Assembly: GCA_020073005.1 (NCBI GenBank)
Contig: JAIQFX010000037.1
Coordinates: 18-64,017 of the forward strand
Length of the DNA: 64,000 nt
From: Terriglobia bacterium
Lineage (GTDB): Bacteria > Acidobacteriota > Vicinamibacteria > Vicinamibacterales > CAVVIG01
Direction of reading: 5' to 3'
Made by a program: the position numbers and the translations under genes. The notes under the pieces were generated by a model. It was given only the letters and a program-made list of their open reading frames with translations. It made no database searches and was not told the DNA's origin. Shown in pieces: positions 20,618 through 51,805 of the stretch (within the stretch, counting starts at the first letter, position 1; every line of letters begins with the position of its first letter).

Positions 20618-21997
20618 ATGAGCTGGCGGATTCTCATTATCGGCGACGTCGACACTCCAACGGAGTGGCTGCACGGCATCGACGGTGTCACCGTCGACCG
20701 GCGTGAGTGGTCGTCTGCGCCGGCGCCGATCGACGGCCAAGCGGACCTGGTCGTGCCGGTTGCCCTCGAGGAAGCGCAGGCGCACGAGATGTTCGAGCGT
20801 CTCCGCGCGAAACCCACGACCGTCCCGGTCCTGGCAATTCTTCCGACGGACGCACCGCTGGAGTTGCTGCACGAAGCGAGCGCGATTGCCTCCGACTTCG
20901 TCGTCTGGCCCGCGCAGCCCGGCGAGGTCCACGCGCGCATCGCGCGCATTCTCGGCGGCGCGTCGACGGAAGCCGACGCGCTCTGCACTCGCCTGCTCGG
21001 CGAGATCGGACTCGAGCGTCTCGTCGGCCGCGATCAATCCTTCCTGCGGATCATCCGGCAGATTCCGCTCATGGCGCGCAGCAACCGGACGGTTCTGATC
21101 ACGGGCGAGACCGGCACCGGCAAGGAGTTGTGCGCCCGCGCCATTCATCACCTGAGCCGGCGGCGTCCGTTTCCGTTCATCCCCGTCGAGTGCGGCGGAT
21201 TCCCCGATCAGCTGTTCGAGAACGAAATGTTCGGCCACGAGCGCGGCGCGTTCACGGACGCGCACCGCCGCCAGCGCGGACTGATCGCGATGGCGGAGGG
21301 CGGCACGCTGTTTCTCGACGAGATCGACTCGCTGTCGCCCGCGTCGCAGGCCAAGCTGCTCCGTTTTCTGCAGGAGCGAACGTACCGGCCGCTCGGCGCC
21401 GATCGATTCGTCCAGGCCGACGTCAACATCGTCGCGGCCAGCAACCGCGACCTCGACGCGCTCGTGCGCGAACAGCACTTCCGCGCCGACCTGTTCTTCC
21501 GCCTGAGCGTGCTGCGGCTCGACTTGATCCCGCTGCGCGCGCGGCCCGGCGACATCGCGATTCTCGCGCAGCACTTCCTGGACGCGATGAGCGCCGAAGA
21601 AGGCGCGCCGCGCAGGACGCTGGCGCCCGCCGCGATCGCGGCGCTCGAACAGTCGGCGTGGCCGGGCAACGTCCGCGAGCTGCACAACGTGATGCAGCGC
21701 GCCTTCGTCTTCGCCGGCGGCTCGCAGATTCTCGCCGCGGATGTCGCGCTCGCGCAACGCGGTTCGGGCGAGCCGCCCGCGCCCGCGGCGCCCGCCGGCG
21801 CAGGCACGGACGCCGGCGCCGAGGATTTCCGCGCCGCGCGGGCGCGCGCCGTCGAAGCCTTCGAGCGCCAGTACGTGATCCGGATGCTGAAGGCCCATCA
21901 GGGCAACATCACCCAAGCGGCGCGCAGCGCCGGCCAGGATCGCCGCGCGTTCGGCCGTCTCGTCAAGCGCTACCAGATCGATCGCCGCGTGATTTAG
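20618..21997 (+). CDS. sigma-54-dependent enhancer-binding protein (receiver-like N-domain + AAA+ + Fis-type HTH)
   Basis: 459 aa. LITGETGTGKELCARAIH (Walker A), ERGAFTDA (GAFTGA-loop variant), LFLDEIDSL (Walker B), RADLFFRLSV, GNVRELHNVMQRA, and a C-terminal GNITQAARSAGQDRRAFGRLVKRY HTH. The N-terminal domain looks receiver-like (RILIIGDVD ... ADLVVPVAL ... VPVLAILP), but the expected phospho-acceptor Asp position seems substituted. Confidence 0.85.
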   Translation: MSWRILIIGDVDTPTEWLHGIDGVTVDRREWSSAPAPIDGQADLVVPVALEEAQAHEMFERLRAKPTTVPVLAILPTDAPLELLHEASAIASDFVVWPAQPGEVHARIARILGGASTEADALCTRLLGEIGLERLVGRDQSFLRIIRQIPLMARSNRTVLITGETGTGKELCARAIHHLSRRRPFPFIPVECGGFPDQLFENEMFGHERGAFTDAHRRQRGLIAMAEGGTLFLDEIDSLSPASQAKLLRFLQERTYRPLGADRFVQADVNIVAASNRDLDALVREQHFRADLFFRLSVLRLDLIPLRARPGDIAILAQHFLDAMSAEEGAPRRTLAPAAIAALEQSAWPGNVRELHNVMQRAFVFAGGSQILAADVALAQRGSGEPPAPAAPAGAGTDAGAEDFRAARARAVEAFERQYVIRMLKAHQGNITQAARSAGQDRRAFGRLVKRYQIDRRVI

Positions 21998-22006
21998 TCG
22001 TTCTCC

Positions 22007-22029
22007 CCAGCCACCAGCCACCAGCCACC
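22007..22029. repeat. three tandem copies of heptamer CCAGCCA (the same repeat family as 15924, opposite strand)
   Basis: ccagcca ccagcca ccagcca cc, 10 nt after the EBP stop codon. Confidence 0.7.
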
Positions 22030-49780: not shown

Positions 49781-49786
49781 CGCGAC

Positions 49787-51805
49787 ATGGCCCACGCATT
49801 TGCCCAGCGGCACTCCGCGCCAGGCGAGCGCGACGCGTCCCCGGGCCGCGCGCATGCGGCCGCGGCCGATCGCGCGCGGAGCGCCCAGGGAGAAATGTCG
49901 CGCGCGTTCGCGCTGACGTCCACCTGGCGCGCGCCGGTCATCCATCGCGCGTGCGCCTGCGGCGGCGGCAGCAACGGCAACGAAGAGGAAGAGCCGATCA
50001 AGCGCGCGCCGGATGCCTCCGGGCTCGTCAGCCAGCCGACCGATCCGGCGGAGATCGAAGCCGACCGCATCGCCGATCAGATCATGCGGATGGAAGACGG
50101 AACGGGCGATGCGATCGCGCTCGCCCCTCCCTCGCCCGTCGCGCGGAAATGCGCCGCGTGCGCCGCCGAAGAAGACACAGAGGAACAGGTCGAAAGCCTG
50201 GTCTCGCGCGCCACGGGCGGCGGCGGCAACCCGCTCGACGTCAGCACGCGCGGACGGATGGAATCGCACTTCGGCCGCAGCTTCGAGGACGTCCGCGTGC
50301 ACACGAGCGGCGCCGCGGCGGAGTCGGCGAGCGCGCTTCACGCGCTGGCGTACACGGTCGGCAGCGACATCGTGTTCGGCGCGGGCCAGTACTCCCCGGG
50401 CGGCCGCGCGGGCGAGCGGCTCCTCGCGCACGAGCTCACCCACGTGGCGCAGGGCGCTTCATCAATGGGCGCGCCGATTCAGCGGCAGGAGTTCATTCCG
50501 ATTCCGGAAACCGGACCGGGATTCTCGCCTGAGTTCATTCCGGAGCTTCCAGAACTGCCGGAGATCGAGATCGAGCCGGAGATCACGCCCGAGTTCGAGC
50601 CGGAGTTGGAGCCGGAGCTCGAACCGGAAATCGGGCCGGAGGTGGGACCGGAGGTCGGACCGGAACCGGCGCCGCAGATCGAACCTTTCCCGGAGCCGTT
50701 CCCGCCGCTGCTGCCGCAGCCGCAGCCATTTCCACAACCGCAGCCGCAGCCCCAGCCCCAGCCGCAGCCGGACGACGAGGAAGACGAGCCGGACGAGACG
50801 TGCGGCTCGGCGAGCATGCCCTTCACGCACGTGACGTGGACGCCGGGCCCGCTCGGTCAGGGCAAGACGGTGAAGGCGAGCCCGCTGACGCGCTGCCCCG
50901 GCAACACGCGCGGATCGAAACCGTCGCGCAGCATCTATCGCCCGCAGTTCGACTGCATCAACGCGGCCGGACAGCGCGGCACGTGGGTGCGCGCGCACGT
51001 CCTGCACGGCAAGACGGATCGCCGGCCGCTGTTCAACCTGCACGGGCCCGGGAACCAGATGTGGAATCTGATCATCGGAGACCAGACGCTCAACGGCGGG
51101 ATGCGCGCCGGCGCGGAGGATCCCGCGATCGATCGCGTGCACCTGAACAACGAAGTCCTGTGGTACGAGTCCACCGTCGATTCGTACGTGCCCGGGCTGG
51201 ACTACTTCGCGCAATCGATCACGGTCAACTTCGGAAGGTACGACACGACGACGCACACGGAAGGACCGCGGCTCGGAGGCGGCACGTTCCCGCTCGGCAC
51301 GACGCCGCCCAATTGCCCGGTGACGGCGGCGCAGTCCGCCGCCGTCCCGCCCGGCGCCGCCGCCGCGGGACCCGCGGCCGGCGCGACCGCCGCGCCCCAC
51401 ACGTCAGGGACGACGCTGTCCTTCCAGAGCACGCTGAAGATCTGCCATCGGCTTCTGCGATCGCGGACGTTCCACGTGCCGAACGGCGGACTTCGCGTGC
51501 GCATCGGCGCGCAGTGGTTCGATCCGTCCGGCCGGAACATCCAGAGCCGGGCCGACTGTCCGATCACCGAGTTCCACGTCAGCCTCGAGCAGTCCGGCAC
51601 CTTCTGGGACAGCGAGATCAGCGATACGGCCATTCCGGTCGGCCACGCGCAGGCCATCCGGTGGCGGTACCTCGATCCCGGCGACTACTACTTGAACATC
51701 TGGACGTTGAACGACGATCCGAATTGCTGTCTGACGGGAGAGATTTCGGTGTCGACGTTCGACGCGCCGAGGCCGGTGCGCAGTCGCACGCCCATGATCG
51801 CGTGA
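49787..51805 (+). CDS. DUF4157-domain protein with a Pro/Glu-rich linker and a C-terminal putative toxin (possibly beta-beta-alpha-Me nuclease-like) domain
   Basis: 672 aa. VIHRACACGGG...EPIKRAP, NPLDVSTRGRMESHFGRSFEDVRVHTSGAAAESASALHALAYTVGSDIVFGAGQYSP...LLAHELTHVAQ is the DUF4157 signature. The linker reads PELPELPEIEIEPEITPEFEPELEPELEPEIGPEV...PQPQPFPQPQPQPQPQPQP. The C-terminal AHVLHGKTD...LHGPGNQMWNLIIGDQTLNGGMRAGAED has an H...N...N...E pattern. Confidence 0.75.
   Translation: MAHAFAQRHSAPGERDASPGRAHAAAADRARSAQGEMSRAFALTSTWRAPVIHRACACGGGSNGNEEEEPIKRAPDASGLVSQPTDPAEIEADRIADQIMRMEDGTGDAIALAPPSPVARKCAACAAEEDTEEQVESLVSRATGGGGNPLDVSTRGRMESHFGRSFEDVRVHTSGAAAESASALHALAYTVGSDIVFGAGQYSPGGRAGERLLAHELTHVAQGASSMGAPIQRQEFIPIPETGPGFSPEFIPELPELPEIEIEPEITPEFEPELEPELEPEIGPEVGPEVGPEPAPQIEPFPEPFPPLLPQPQPFPQPQPQPQPQPQPDDEEDEPDETCGSASMPFTHVTWTPGPLGQGKTVKASPLTRCPGNTRGSKPSRSIYRPQFDCINAAGQRGTWVRAHVLHGKTDRRPLFNLHGPGNQMWNLIIGDQTLNGGMRAGAEDPAIDRVHLNNEVLWYESTVDSYVPGLDYFAQSITVNFGRYDTTTHTEGPRLGGGTFPLGTTPPNCPVTAAQSAAVPPGAAAAGPAAGATAAPHTSGTTLSFQSTLKICHRLLRSRTFHVPNGGLRVRIGAQWFDPSGRNIQSRADCPITEFHVSLEQSGTFWDSEISDTAIPVGHAQAIRWRYLDPGDYYLNIWTLNDDPNCCLTGEISVSTFDAPRPVRSRTPMIA

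What the first reader, a model, noticed from the sequence alone, without database searches (positions are those of the whole stretch)
20618..51805. Complete eCIS-like (Afp/PVC-type) contractile injection locus with unusual composition
Downstream of a sigma-54 activator gene, 21 co-directional genes run with tiny gaps or overlapping stop/start codons. Examples are TGATG at 28377, ATGA at 33850, GTGA at 48581, and 8-10 nt overlaps at 30206, 30375 and 40402.

In order they encode a DUF4255 cap-like protein, sheath, tube, sheath, tube, a tube-fold/LysM-like protein, a DUF5908-like protein, a gpD hub, a gp5/V spike, gp25, baseplate J, a P2-I-like wedge, a tape-measure candidate, an AAA+ ATPase and a DUF4157 protein.

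That combination is the eCIS signature rather than a prophage tail or a T6SS. I saw no capsid, portal, terminase or integrase, and no TssJ/L/M, TssK, TssA or ClpV.

Six or more genes inside the locus match nothing I recognise. I saw no PAAR or tail-fibre gene. So this looks like a divergent, possibly undescribed eCIS lineage.
Basis: partly seen in the sequence, partly recalled or inferred. Interest (0 to 1): 0.85.

Follow-up and report, generated by a model that had tools for sequence, protein, structure and literature searches.

The report
Catalogued-type phage-tail-like injection system
This is a complete gene cluster for a phage-tail-like "nano-syringe" in an uncultured soil-type Acidobacteria genome. 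It is real and well preserved, but it belongs to a subtype (IIb) that is already catalogued in many bacteria, although nobody has yet studied a member in the lab.

Summary
After a sigma-54 activator gene (20618-21997), 22 co-directional genes run from 22190 to 51805 with gaps of -10 to +48 nt. Pfam recovers the cap, two sheaths, two tubes, an Afp7-like tube-fold protein, gpD, gp5 spike, gp25, Baseplate_J, Tail_P2_I, AAA+ and DUF4157. The window has no head, terminase, integrase or T6SS membrane-complex genes.

The "undescribed lineage" reading fails. Split gpD/gp5, a single Baseplate_J, no PAAR and divergent Afp12/Afp13 are the published marks of eCIS subtype IIb. The same gene order occurs in 80 genomes of nine phyla. 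It includes the Accumulibacter UW-1 locus, which eCIStem lists gene by gene; the Nitrococcus genome is listed there too.

"No tail fibre" is probably wrong. Two genes carry a CIS13-type N-terminal module, and one belongs to a family with swappable adhesin-like ends.

New details:
- A sigma-54 promoter with upstream repeats precedes the operon, and this activator-promoter module recurs in relatives.
- A conserved 573-aa protein with a hydrophobic hairpin lies between the spike and gp25 genes. It has no known fold and is the only membrane candidate.
- The DUF4157 protein carries a rare, unassigned cargo domain.

Whether particles are released or membrane-bound is open. Verdict: new member of a known kind.

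The parts
20618..21997 (+). Sigma-54 enhancer-binding activator (459 aa). An unscored N-terminal region is followed by an AAA+ sigma-54 interaction domain and a Fis-type HTH.
   Evidence: Pfam Sigma54_activat 1.6e-60, AAA_lid_14 2e-20, HTH_8 7e-5. Co-directional homologues (39-68% identity) lie just upstream of the cap gene in 24 of 46 metagenomic relatives. Accumulibacter UW-1 has CAP2UW1_3680 in the matching position.
22030..22092 (.). Two 20-nt copies of GGGAC-N10-GTCCCACCC, 43 nt apart. The second holds a perfect 9-nt palindrome. These are candidate activator binding sites (UAS).
   Evidence: the repeat finder D1, I1 and I3. Similar GGGAC...G(A/T)CCCACCC repeats occupy the same intergenic position in relatives. 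Binding itself is inferred.
22160..22175 (+). Sigma-54 type -24/-12 promoter element, TGGCGCGTGCGTTGCT.
   Evidence: It is the only exact match to TGGCRC-N5-TTGCW in the 64 kb. It lies 337 nt before the cap start. Equivalent motifs sit at -333 to -365 in 12 of the 14 motif-bearing relatives, out of 23 with an upstream activator, and upstream of the cap gene in 5 Accumulibacter-group loci. The strict motif gives 0 hits in 425 kb of background.
22190..22492 (+). Small protein of unknown function (100 aa from TTG 22190; 90 aa from GTG 22220, as in the ENA gene call). First gene after the promoter.
   Evidence: GC3 frame. No family hit. Conserved in the closest relatives.
22496..23086 (+). Tail terminator/cap, Afp16/Pvc16-like.
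   Evidence: Pfam Pvc16_N 1.3e-27.
23094..23921 (+). Subtype-specific protein of unknown function (275 aa).
   Evidence: No Pfam, NCBIfam, PHROGs or PDB match, alone or as a profile. Present in this position wherever the fetched DNA reaches that far. More than 226 metagenomic relatives.
23952..25802 (+). Sheath protein A (616 aa).
   Evidence: Pfam Phage_sheath_1 + Phage_sheath_1C. Best solved relatives: Halogeometricum Cis2 9ezm at 3e-104 and Streptomyces Cis2 8bky at 1e-99; Anabaena, AlgoCIS, Afp and PVC sheaths score 1e-53 to 1e-42.
25851..26312 (+). Tube protein A (153 aa).
   Evidence: Pfam Phage_T4_gp19 1.2e-31.
26325..28379 (+). Sheath protein B (684 aa), a paralogue of A (26% identity).
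   Evidence: Pfam sheath domains. blastp against sheath A 1e-46.
28379..28852 (+). Tube protein B (157 aa).
   Evidence: Pfam Phage_T4_gp19 2.6e-32.
28857..30215 (+). Afp7-like tube-fold baseplate protein with a roughly 300-aa Ser/Ala-rich tail.
   Evidence: Pfam CIS_tube 3.5e-24, aa 4-153. CIS_tube found in 29 of 29 homologues, LysM in none.
30206..30382 (+). 58-aa protein in the Afp6/Cis6 position.
   Evidence: GC3 frame. No family hit. tblastn detects a homologue in 15 of the 81 loci compared, the window's own ENA copy included. Accumulibacter has a 60-aa gene in the same place.
30375..31454 (+). Baseplate hub, gpD/gp27-like (first half of Afp8).
   Evidence: Pfam Phage_GPD 6e-13. A separate ORF from the spike in 79 of 80 loci compared.
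31456..32127 (+). Spike, gp5/gpV OB-fold (second half of Afp8).
   Evidence: Pfam Phage_base_V 1.2e-19.
32132..33853 (+). Conserved 573-aa protein of unknown fold. It has a beta-rich N-terminal domain, a long alpha-hairpin, a hydrophobic hairpin (aa ~421-465) and a conserved C-terminal motif. It is the only protein in the locus with membrane-type segments.
   Evidence: Hydropathy scan. AlphaFold mean pLDDT 75, mostly >90 over the first ~360 residues but lower (75-89) across aa ~70-120 and the alpha-hairpin. No Foldseek match in PDB or BFVD. No family hit. 1141 representatives at 50% identity. Invariant Cys/His and the VAPWW, THKRFYLVV and CxAGFVVRRR motifs.
33850..34239 (+). Baseplate wedge gp25/Afp9.
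   Evidence: Pfam GPW_gp25 5.7e-22.
34246..36489 (+). Baseplate J/gp6/Afp11, the only copy.
   Evidence: Pfam Baseplate_J 7.9e-14.
36491..38779 (+). Afp12-like wedge protein: an NHL beta-propeller fused to Tail_P2_I.
   Evidence: Pfam Tail_P2_I 7e-7, NHL 2.5e-5. NHL propeller hits in PDB.
38784..40409 (+). 541-aa protein with conserved ends and a variable Ala-rich middle. Tape-measure candidate by position only.
   Evidence: No family or PDB hit, even as a 39-sequence profile. Conserved N- and C-termini. Overlaps the ATPase gene by 8 nt.
40402..42372 (+). AAA+ ATPase, Afp15/Pvc15-like.
   Evidence: Pfam AAA 2.3e-26, WHD 7e-7.
42385..43746 (+). 453-aa Ala-rich, probably coiled-coil protein of unknown function.
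   Evidence: No family hit. tblastn detects a homologue in 27 of the loci compared. Accumulibacter CAP2UW1_3661 has the same size and place.
43771..45120 (+). 449-aa protein with a CIS13-type N-terminal module. Short fibre or baseplate-periphery candidate.
   Evidence: NCBIfam CIS13_fam 1e-4, N-terminus only. N-terminus similar to that of the next gene. It is one of the 17 of 17 N-terminal segments that hit CIS13_fam.
45123..48584 (+). 1153-aa protein with a CIS13-type N-terminal module. Candidate receptor-binding (fibre-like) protein.
   Evidence: CIS13_fam 8e-7, or 3e-8 for the first 150 aa. 785+ homologues conserve aa 1-~1040. Many have DUF11, CARDB, Fn3-like or other Ig-like domains recorded; in two homologues examined, extra sequence of ~90 and ~390 aa sits before the last ~120 aa.
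48581..49780 (+). 399-aa protein with a C-terminal SH3-like domain. Possible second cargo or cell-wall-binding factor.
   Evidence: Pfam SH3_3 7e-4 (below cut-off), NCBIfam GsmA SH3 region 2e-6, PHROG amidase C-terminus 2e-4. Function is inferred.
49787..51805 (+). DUF4157 (eCIS_core, HExxH) protein, then a Pro-rich linker, then a rare 2-subdomain C-terminal domain. Presumed cargo or toxin.
   Evidence: Pfam eCIS_core 8.3e-29, aa 149-224. The C-terminal domain has only 19 homologues, 3 of them fused to DUF4157. AlphaFold pLDDT 85. Foldseek gives only generic beta-sandwich/jelly-roll hits, aligning 121-195 of the 338 residues. DUF4157 is linked to eCIS toxins in PMC8213781.

Best explanation
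The locus encodes a contractile injection system of published subtype IIb (lineage II of the Afp/PVC-type eCIS superfamily). It sits in a GenBank MAG labelled Acidobacteriia/Terriglobia bacterium.

**Shown**
- A complete structural set is present: cap, two sheath paralogues, two tube paralogues, an Afp7-like tube-fold protein, separate gpD hub and gp5 spike, gp25, one Baseplate_J, an NHL-Tail_P2_I wedge and an AAA+ ATPase.
- Seven further proteins recur in related loci, six of them of unknown family. The seventh is a DUF4157 protein at the 3' end.
- An exact -24/-12 sigma-54 motif and two upstream repeats lie between a dedicated activator gene and the first gene.

**Inferred**
- The activator binds the repeats and switches on the whole 29.6-kb operon from the sigma-54 promoter.
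- The particle assembles in the cytoplasm on the hub-spike-wedge baseplate. Tube and sheath polymerise to a length set by the 541-aa protein and are closed by the cap.
- The AAA+ ATPase helps assembly or cargo loading.
- The DUF4157 protein, and perhaps the SH3 protein, is the cargo.
- The two proteins with CIS13-type N-termini attach to the baseplate rim. The 1153-aa one binds the target.
- Sheath contraction drives the PAAR-less spike and cargo into a target.

I lean (about 55%) to release of free particles that act from outside. The conserved hydrophobic-hairpin protein would then ride on or next to the spike. A membrane-bound mode is the main rival.
For: - **Core families:**
- **Operon structure:**
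- **Lineage II affinity of the sheath:** (Halogeometricum 3e-104 and Streptomyces 1e-99, against Afp/PVC at 1e-49 to 1e-42).
- **Subtype IIb criteria from PMC6899500:** split afp8, single afp11, no afp10, afp12 and afp13 present but divergent, and a small gene in the afp6 place. All are met.
- **Conserved gene order:** identical in 80 genomic loci of nine phyla and in the eCIStem entry for Accumulibacter UW-1.
- **Not a prophage:** no phage head, packaging or integration genes, no tRNA and no GC shift in 64 kb. The marker protein is almost absent from IMG/VR.
- **Sigma-54 control:**
- **Fibre-like proteins:**
- **DUF4157 as a toxin marker:**
Against: - No member of this subtype has been seen as a particle, in the literature I could search.
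- The extracellular mode is not shown. There is no holin/endolysin cassette in the window. The locus encodes a conserved membrane-type protein in the baseplate module, which true eCIS (Afp, PVC) lack.
- The tape-measure, cargo and fibre roles rest on position, weak N-terminal homology or analogy. The cargo domain has no assignable activity, and no immunity-like gene follows it.
- I could not place the proteins on the dbeCIS tree, so "IIb" rests on gene-content criteria.
- The 80 genomic loci were fetched with the hairpin protein as bait. They therefore cannot show whether IIb loci without it exist.
Confidence: 0.75

Rival explanations
1. Same machine, different mode of action. The particles are not released. 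They are tethered to the producer's cytoplasmic membrane by the conserved hydrophobic-hairpin protein (32132-33853). From there they fire outward on contact (T6SS-like, as in Halogeometricum and Amoebophilus), or into the producer's own membrane to cause regulated lysis or death (as proposed for Anabaena tCIS and Streptomyces CIS).
For: - This protein is the only one of the 23 in the locus with membrane-type segments.
- It is encoded between the spike and gp25 genes in every locus compared. The family is large and strongly conserved.
- The closest solved sheaths come from systems that stay inside the cell (PMC11566945; PMC10066040).
- In haloarchaea the T6SS-like mode correlates with a conserved membrane protein encoded at the cluster.
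- No lysis cassette is present in the window.
Against: - The hairpin region is modelled with low confidence, and its membrane insertion is untested.
- The locus keeps fibre-like proteins, and in homologues these carry variable adhesin-type domains. That fits recognition of a foreign surface.
- The subtype occurs unchanged in hosts with one membrane and hosts with two. An outward-firing anchored system would face very different envelopes in these hosts.
- No TssJLM-like trans-envelope complex was found.
Confidence: 0.3
2. A leftover contractile tail module of a defective prophage, or an R-type tailocin, rather than a dedicated injection system.
For: All structural families are shared with myovirus tails. 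PGAP names the sheath simply as a phage tail sheath domain protein.
Against: - No capsid, portal, terminase, integrase, repressor, lysis cassette or tRNA in 64 kb.
- eCIS-specific parts are present: DUF4255 cap, AAA+ ATPase and DUF4157.
- The same 16-gene order is kept across nine phyla without phage genes.
- Only one hit in 2.9 million viral contigs.
Confidence: 0.03
3. A canonical type VI secretion system.
For: Sheath, tube, spike, gp25 and an AAA+ ATPase are shared with T6SS.
Against: - No TssJ, TssL, TssM, TssK, TssA, TssF/G or ClpV families were found in any of the 23 proteins.
- The tube is gp19-type, not Hcp.
- A cap (DUF4255), Baseplate_J and Tail_P2_I are present.
Confidence: 0.01

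Closest known systems
eCIS subtype IIb loci of dbeCIS/eCIStem, e.g. Ca. Accumulibacter phosphatis UW-1 CAP2UW1_3658-3680 (NC_013194 4171257-4207078) and the eCIStem-listed operon of Nitrococcus mobilis Nb-231
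   Same: The gene order matches gene for gene: cap, unknown, sheath, tube, sheath, tube, Afp7-like, small ORF, gpD, gp5, unknown ~570-615 aa, gp25, Baseplate_J, Tail_P2_I, unknown ~490-540 aa, AAA+, three unknowns of ~455, ~440 and ~1130 aa, then a DUF4157 protein. Protein identities are 33-67%. Accumulibacter also has a sigma-54 activator gene upstream and a -24/-12 motif before the cap gene.
   Different: - Host phylum: Acidobacteriota against Pseudomonadota.
- The window has an extra small gene after the promoter and an extra SH3-domain gene before the DUF4157 gene.
- The cargo domain differs. It is a rare 338-aa domain here, a 2253-aa DUF4157 protein in Accumulibacter, and DUF4157 + PG_binding_1 in Nitrococcus.
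- None of these loci has been studied experimentally, as far as I could find.
Streptomyces coelicolor CIS(Sc), subtype IId (PDB 8bky; PMC10066040, PMC10020575)
   Same: Lineage II. Sheath A matches its Cis2 at 1e-99. It has two tube paralogues, no classical Afp13 fibre or Afp14 tape measure by sequence, and membrane-associated accessory proteins.
   Different: Streptomyces has one sheath gene, a fused Afp8 (the IId trait), TM-domain effectors Sco4256-8 and the CisA/Sco4242 adaptor. It acts in the cytoplasm to cause cell death. It is not reported to have a homologue of the 573-aa hairpin protein at the spike/gp25 junction, and it has no sigma-54 (my own knowledge for the last point).
Halogeometricum borinquense archaeal T6SS-like CIS, subtype IIa (PDB 9ezm; PMC11566945)
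   Same: It has the closest solved sheath (3e-104). Afp8 is split (the IIa trait). Cis12 and Cis13 lie at the baseplate rim. A conserved membrane protein is encoded at the cluster.
   Different: IIa has two Cis11 genes and a PAAR. Its membrane protein has six helices and lies upstream of the cluster. The host is an archaeon. Membrane-bound, contact-dependent killing has been shown there.
Afp / PVC (subtype Ia) and AlgoCIS / Anabaena tCIS
   Same: The overall parts list and presumed contraction mechanism are shared: a DUF4255 cap, an AAA+ ATPase, and toxins at the 3' end.
   Different: - These are lineage I or a different lineage II branch; their sheaths match at only 1e-53 to 1e-42.
- They have a fused VgrG, a PAAR, a recognisable Afp13 fibre and an Afp14 tape measure.
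- They have no hairpin protein and a different gene order.

Membership tests
eCIS/CIS superfamily (Afp/PVC-like; Chen 2019, Geller 2021) | Contractile sheath and gp19-type tube genes | tested here: met
   Two Phage_sheath_1/1C proteins and two Phage_T4_gp19 proteins.
eCIS/CIS superfamily (Afp/PVC-like; Chen 2019, Geller 2021) | Baseplate core: gpD hub, gp5 spike, gp25, Baseplate_J | tested here: met
   Phage_GPD 6e-13, Phage_base_V 1e-19, GPW_gp25 6e-22, Baseplate_J 8e-14.
eCIS/CIS superfamily (Afp/PVC-like; Chen 2019, Geller 2021) | At least ten core genes, including an eCIS-specific one (Afp12, 13, 14 or 16), plus an AAA+ ATPase (Geller's operational rule) | tested here: met
   Pvc16_N/DUF4255 1e-27, Tail_P2_I 7e-7, AAA 2e-26, eCIS_core/DUF4157 8e-29. 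Thirteen genes carry core families.
eCIS/CIS superfamily (Afp/PVC-like; Chen 2019, Geller 2021) | No phage head, packaging or integration genes nearby | tested here: met
   Pfam on most of the flanking genes called across the 64-kb window finds metabolic and housekeeping families only. No tRNA. The source contig is only 64,040 nt, so nothing beyond it could be checked.
eCIS/CIS superfamily (Afp/PVC-like; Chen 2019, Geller 2021) | Forms contractile particles that deliver cargo | not testable with these tools
   Needs sheath preparations, EM and functional assays.
eCIS subtype IIb (Chen et al. 2019) | afp8 split into separate gp27-like and gp5-like ORFs (IIa, IIb, IIc) | tested here: met
   30375-31454 and 31456-32127 are separate ORFs. 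They are split in 79 of 80 loci compared.
eCIS subtype IIb (Chen et al. 2019) | Single afp11/Baseplate_J gene (Ia, Ib, IIb, IId) | tested here: met
   Only 34246-36489 hits Baseplate_J among all proteins scanned.
eCIS subtype IIb (Chen et al. 2019) | afp10/PAAR absent (absent only from IIb) | tested here: met
   No PAAR_motif hit in any protein at E<=0.01. No gap inside the operon is longer than 48 nt.
eCIS subtype IIb (Chen et al. 2019) | afp6 present (the only lineage II subtype with it) | tested here: inconclusive
   A 58-aa gene sits in the Afp6 position between the Afp7-like and gpD genes. It has no detectable family, and I had no Afp6 profile to compare it with.
eCIS subtype IIb (Chen et al. 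2019) | Divergent afp12 and afp13 present | tested here: met
   Tail_P2_I 7e-7. CIS13_fam N-terminal module in 43771-45120 and 45123-48584, and in 17 of 17 family N-termini. Scores are far below the full-length cut-off, which fits "divergent".
eCIS subtype IIb (Chen et al. 2019) | Falls in the IIb clade of the dbeCIS tree | not testable with these tools
   dbeCIS sequences and subtype labels are not on hand. Indirect support only: collinearity with the eCIStem-listed Accumulibacter locus.
Canonical T6SS | Membrane complex TssJ/L/M, baseplate TssK/F/G, TssA, ClpV, Hcp tube | tested here: not met
   None of these families appears in Pfam or NCBIfam scans of the locus proteins.
Prophage tail / R-type tailocin | Adjacent head or packaging genes (prophage), or a lysis cassette and phage-type regulators (tailocin) | tested here: not met
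   The marker protein gives one hit in 2.9 million viral contigs, and that hit is a CIS fragment.
Sigma-54 dependent operon | Enhancer-binding protein with a sigma-54 interaction domain and HTH, a -24/-12 promoter, and upstream activator sites | tested here: met
   The module recurs in relatives. The presence of rpoN in the genome and actual dependence could not be tested.

The most novel reading that the evidence does not exclude
Subtype IIb systems may not be classical free-floating eCIS. The strongly conserved 573-aa protein between the spike and gp25 genes could be a new kind of CIS component. It has an unknown fold, invariant Cys/His and a hydrophobic hairpin. It might replace PAAR as a membrane-inserting spike tip, or it might tether the baseplate to the producer's membrane. 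Either way, the whole subtype, spread over at least nine phyla and switched on by a dedicated sigma-54 activator in part of them, would work in a mode not yet described.
Probability: 0.3. Interest if true: 0.6.

Novelty: new member of a known kind. Interest (0 to 1): 0.3.

Why it matters
The finding adds a well-preserved Acidobacteriota example to a widespread contractile injection subtype that has never been studied experimentally.

What is useful beyond the annotation:
1. **A testable regulatory module.** It consists of the activator, its repeats and a sigma-54 promoter, and it recurs in distant relatives. The catalogue papers I read do not discuss it. It offers a handle for switching such silent clusters on.
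2. **A clear list of the conserved unknowns.** Chief among them is the hairpin protein, whose location would decide whether IIb systems are released or membrane-bound.
3. **A rare, unassigned cargo domain fused to DUF4157.**

None of this overturns current views of these systems.

Tried and rejected
- **Nuclease idea for the cargo domain.** By eye, the motif HxLHG...NLHGPGN...WNLI...N in 49787-51805 looked like an HNH/endonuclease-type toxin. Pfam at E<=5, a PDB sequence search and AlphaFold + Foldseek gave no nuclease match, only generic beta-sandwich hits. I dropped it.
- **Hairpin protein as a PAAR-like or known fold.** Foldseek against PDB and BFVD found nothing better than E 3e-3 at TM about 0.1. 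Those hits were coiled-coil hairpins of efflux adaptors.
- **LysM in the Afp7-like protein and DUF5908 in the 58-aa protein.** Not found in 29 and 13 family members respectively.
- **Tape-measure family for 38784-40409, and any family for 23094-23921.** Nothing was found alone or as profiles against PDB.
- **CIS13/fibre N-terminal profile against PDB.** No significant hit.
- **Similarity between the SH3 protein and the DUF4157 protein.** None.
- **Literature.** No paper in the held library describes an experimentally studied IIb system or one from myxobacteria or Acidobacteria.
- **Host guess.** My early guess that the host was a myxobacterium (high GC, sigma-54, PEGA) was wrong. An exact protein look-up gives an Acidobacteriia/Terriglobia MAG.
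- **Terminator.** No intrinsic terminator was found after the last gene.

Full report
**1. What is in the sequence**

The window is 66-73% G+C throughout, with no shift at the locus. Mechanical ORF lists are therefore useless. I called genes by third-position G+C and start-codon inspection.

- A sigma-54 activator gene lies at 20618-21997.
- A 192-nt spacer follows.
- Then come 22 + strand genes from 22190 to 51805.
- Gaps run from -10 to +48 nt, and the stretch is 99.6% coding.
- An independent gene call on an identical ENA metagenome contig gives the same genes.

**2. Family assignments**

Pfam recovers these families, in gene order:

| Gene product | Pfam family | E-value |
|---|---|---|
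| Cap | Pvc16_N/DUF4255 | 1e-27 |
| Sheath A (616 aa) | sheath domains | - |
| Tube A | gp19 | 1e-31 |
| Sheath B (684 aa) | sheath domains | - |
| Tube B | gp19 | 3e-32 |
| Afp7-like protein with long Ser/Ala-rich tail | CIS_tube | 4e-24 |
| Hub | Phage_GPD | 6e-13 |
| Spike | Phage_base_V | 1e-19 |
| Wedge | GPW_gp25 | 6e-22 |
| Baseplate J | Baseplate_J | 8e-14 |
| Wedge with NHL propeller | Tail_P2_I | 7e-7 |
| ATPase with winged-helix domain | AAA | 2e-26 |
| Last gene | eCIS_core/DUF4157 | 8e-29 |

Ten proteins or domains have no significant family in Pfam (even at E<=5), NCBIfam or PHROGs.
- No LysM in the Afp7-like protein or in 28 homologues.
- No DUF5908 in the 58-aa protein or in 12 homologues.
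- No tape-measure family for the 541-aa protein, which stays a candidate by position only.

**3. Not a prophage, not a T6SS**

- The flanking genes I scanned across the window encode permease, enolase-superfamily, SDR, TPR, peptidase, RibD, PTPS, CDP-alcohol transferase, PEGA, NHL and PIG-L proteins. None encodes capsid, portal, terminase or integrase.
- There are no tRNA genes.
- No T6SS membrane-complex, TssK/A or ClpV family appears.
- A profile of the lineage-specific 573-aa protein finds one hit in 2.9 million IMG/VR contigs. That contig is a collinear fragment of the same kind of locus.

**4. Source**

Exact-sequence look-ups identify the window as a 64,040-nt contig of a GenBank MAG labelled Acidobacteriia (Terriglobia) bacterium.
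- Locus tags are LAO77_12810 for the 573-aa protein and LAO77_12850 for the 1153-aa protein.
- The sheath is MBZ5558139.1.
- The closest genomic relative is another Acidobacteriota MAG, at 69% identity for the marker protein.

**5. Which lineage**

Sheath A is closest to the solved sheaths of Halogeometricum borinquense (9ezm, 3e-104; subtype IIa) and Streptomyces (8bky/8bl4, 1e-99 to 7e-98; subtype IId). It is much further from Anabaena, AlgoCIS, Afp and PVC sheaths at 1e-53 to 1e-42. This places it in lineage II.

Chen et al. 2019 give gene-content criteria:
- afp8 is split in IIa, IIb and IIc.
- afp11 is single in Ia, Ib, IIb and IId.
- afp10/PAAR is absent only from IIb.
- afp6 is present only in IIb within lineage II.
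- Divergent afp12 and afp13 occur in IIa and IIb.
- afp14 is not recognisable.
- Each subtype has two or three conserved genes with no known domain.

The window meets every one of these. The sole reservation is that the small gene in the afp6 position cannot be shown to be homologous to Afp6.

**6. The same locus elsewhere**

- A profile of the 573-aa protein fetched 80 loci from species-representative genomes.
- By record titles these comprise 20 Acidobacteriota, 9 Gemmatimonadota, 4 Myxococcota/"delta", 13 Actinomycetota, 26 Pseudomonadota, 4 Planctomycetota, 2 Verrucomicrobiota, 1 Chloroflexota and 1 Bacillota.
- tblastn with the window's proteins shows the order cap to AAA+ ATPase to be collinear in nearly every locus that reaches far enough. 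The four exceptions (L012, L030, L064, L080) are loci cut short upstream, where the paralogous sheath and tube genes swap places in the best-hit ordering.
- gpD and gp5 are split in 79 of 80.
- Ca. Accumulibacter phosphatis UW-1 is in the set. The eCIStem supplement of Geller et al. 2021 lists its locus as an eCIS operon, gene by gene, in the same order. That includes the unknowns and a terminal DUF4157 protein.
- The eCIStem supplement also lists an eCIS operon in Nitrococcus mobilis Nb-231, under a different accession from the locus fetched here.

I found no experimental study of a IIb system in the held literature.

Caveat: the 80 loci were fetched with the 573-aa protein as bait. Its presence in all of them is circular.

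**7. The conserved unknowns**

(a) *573-aa protein, 32132-33853, between the spike and gp25 genes.*
- It is the only protein of the locus with membrane-type hydrophobic segments, at aa ~421-465.
- The family is large: more than 805 clusters at 90% identity and 1141 representatives at 50% identity.
- It is strongly conserved, with invariant Trp, Cys and His residues and the motifs VAPWW, THKRFYLVV and CxAGFVVRRR.
- AlphaFold gives a beta-rich N-terminal domain, mostly at pLDDT above 90, with a long alpha-hairpin at lower confidence (about 75-89). The hydrophobic region has low confidence.
- Foldseek finds no significant relative in PDB or BFVD.

(b) *275-aa protein after the cap gene.* It is equally subtype-specific and unassignable.

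(c) *541-aa protein before the ATPase gene.* It has conserved ends and a variable Ala-rich middle. This is compatible with a length ruler but untested.

(d) *Proteins of 449 and 1153 aa.*
- They share an N-terminal module.
- That module matches the first ~85 positions of NCBIfam CIS13_fam in 17 of 17 family members tested, best E 2.5e-11. This is far below the full-length cut-off.
- Homologues of the 1153-aa protein conserve residues 1 to about 1040.
- Many have DUF11, CARDB, Fn3-like and other Ig-like domains recorded. In the two homologues I mapped, ~90 and ~390 extra residues sit before the last ~120 residues. A fixed attachment end with an exchangeable distal end is what receptor-binding proteins look like.
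- "No tail fibre" is thus probably wrong. This agrees with Chen's "divergent afp13".

(e) *Last two genes.*
- One is a 399-aa protein with a weak C-terminal SH3-type match.
- The other is the DUF4157 protein. Its C-terminal 338 residues form a rare domain with 19 homologues, three of them also fused to DUF4157.
- That domain models well at pLDDT 85, but it matches only generic beta-sandwich folds, over 121-195 of its 338 residues.
- My by-eye nuclease idea found no support.
- No immunity-like gene follows.

**8. Regulation**

- The only exact match to TGGCRC-N5-TTGCW in 64 kb lies at 22160-22175. This is between the activator gene and the first operon gene.
- Upstream are two 20-nt copies of GGGAC-N10-GTCCCACCC, 43 nt apart. 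One contains a perfect 9-nt palindrome.
- The arrangement recurs. Five Accumulibacter-group loci have a strict -24/-12 motif 54-190 nt before the cap gene.
- UW-1 also has a Sigma54_activat + HTH_8 gene 1.8 kb upstream.
- In a metagenome scan with the 275-aa protein as bait, 24 of 46 loci with enough upstream DNA carry an activator homologue just upstream, 23 of them co-directional.
- Of those 23, 14 carry a -24/-12 motif, 12 of them at -333 to -365 from the cap start. The window's motif is at -337.
- Several of the rest carry one-base variants visible.
- The strict motif occurs 0 times in 425 kb of background from the same loci.
- Similar GGGAC...CCCACCC repeats recur in the spacers.
- Geller et al. 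name GerE/LuxR as the conserved eCIS regulator and do not mention sigma-54.

Sigma-54 dependence is thus well supported by sequence. It is a modest new detail, but it is not shown experimentally.

**9. How it most likely works**

*Shown:* the parts list, the operon structure, the promoter motif and the conservation.

*Inferred from established knowledge of Afp, PVC, AlgoCIS and phage tails:*
- The activator opens the sigma-54 promoter.
- The baseplate assembles from hub, spike, gp25, J and the P2_I-type wedge.
- Tube and sheath polymerise and are capped.
- The AAA+ ATPase supports assembly or cargo loading.
- DUF4157-tagged cargo is carried.
- The CIS13-type proteins bind the target.
- Contraction drives the spike and cargo through a membrane.

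*Open question:* where does this happen?
- For release (about 55%): the fibre-like proteins whose homologues carry variable adhesin-type ends, and an identical machine in hosts with one membrane and hosts with two.
- For a membrane-bound or intracellular mode (about 30%): the conserved hairpin protein encoded inside the baseplate module, the absence of a lysis cassette, and the fact that the nearest studied systems (Halogeometricum, Streptomyces, Anabaena) all stay in the cell.

**10. Verdict**

This is a real, complete, correctly recognised contractile injection locus. Its composition is that of the known subtype IIb, not of an undescribed lineage.

- Novelty: new member of a known kind.
- Interest is modest at 0.3. 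The subtype is experimentally untouched, and the hairpin protein, the sigma-54 module and the rare cargo domain are concrete leads. Nothing here would surprise a specialist.

Noticed in passing
window 53048-53063 (+) and 53093-54751 (+): A second sigma-54-type -24/-12 motif (TGGCGTTGGCCTTGCA) lies about 30 nt before the start of a 552-aa coiled-coil protein gene. This is 1.2 kb beyond the end of the injection-system operon, so it may be co-regulated with it.
   Followed up: no
window 36491-38779 (+), aa ~115-225: The Afp12-like wedge protein carries an NHL-repeat beta-propeller ahead of its Tail_P2_I domain. A propeller at the baseplate rim could be a binding module.
   Followed up: partly
window 55339-57015 (-) and 56475-60971 (-): A second NHL-repeat protein gene overlaps, in another frame, the 3' end of a 1498-aa ORF that has no Pfam hit. 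One of the two calls is probably too long.
   Followed up: no
window 51805-51840: The operon ends 35 nt from a convergent PEGA-domain gene (51840-52907, - strand). There is no intrinsic terminator and no small + strand ORF that could be an immunity gene for the presumed toxin.
   Followed up: partly
window 28857-30215 (+), aa ~160-452: The Afp7-like protein has a tail of about 300 residues of Ser/Ala/Pro-rich low-complexity sequence after its tube-fold domain. Its homologues are of similar length.
   Followed up: no
window 22190-22492 (+); L002-L005, L084-L106: A small gene of 90-100 aa sits between the sigma-54 promoter and the cap gene. It is detected mainly in relatives that also have the upstream activator. 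Accumulibacter has an 86-aa gene in the same place. Its function is unknown.
   Followed up: partly
L025 (uncultured Actinomycetes MAG), locus 8321-11653: This is the only one of the 80 loci compared in which the gpD and gp5 parts appear to lie in one open reading frame. It could be a real fusion or an assembly artefact.
   Followed up: no
window 20618-21000 (+), aa 1-130 of the activator: By eye, the N-terminal region of the activator looks like a receiver-type domain. Pfam does not score it as one; the only hit is a weak GlnR_1st match. Its input signal is unknown.
   Followed up: no
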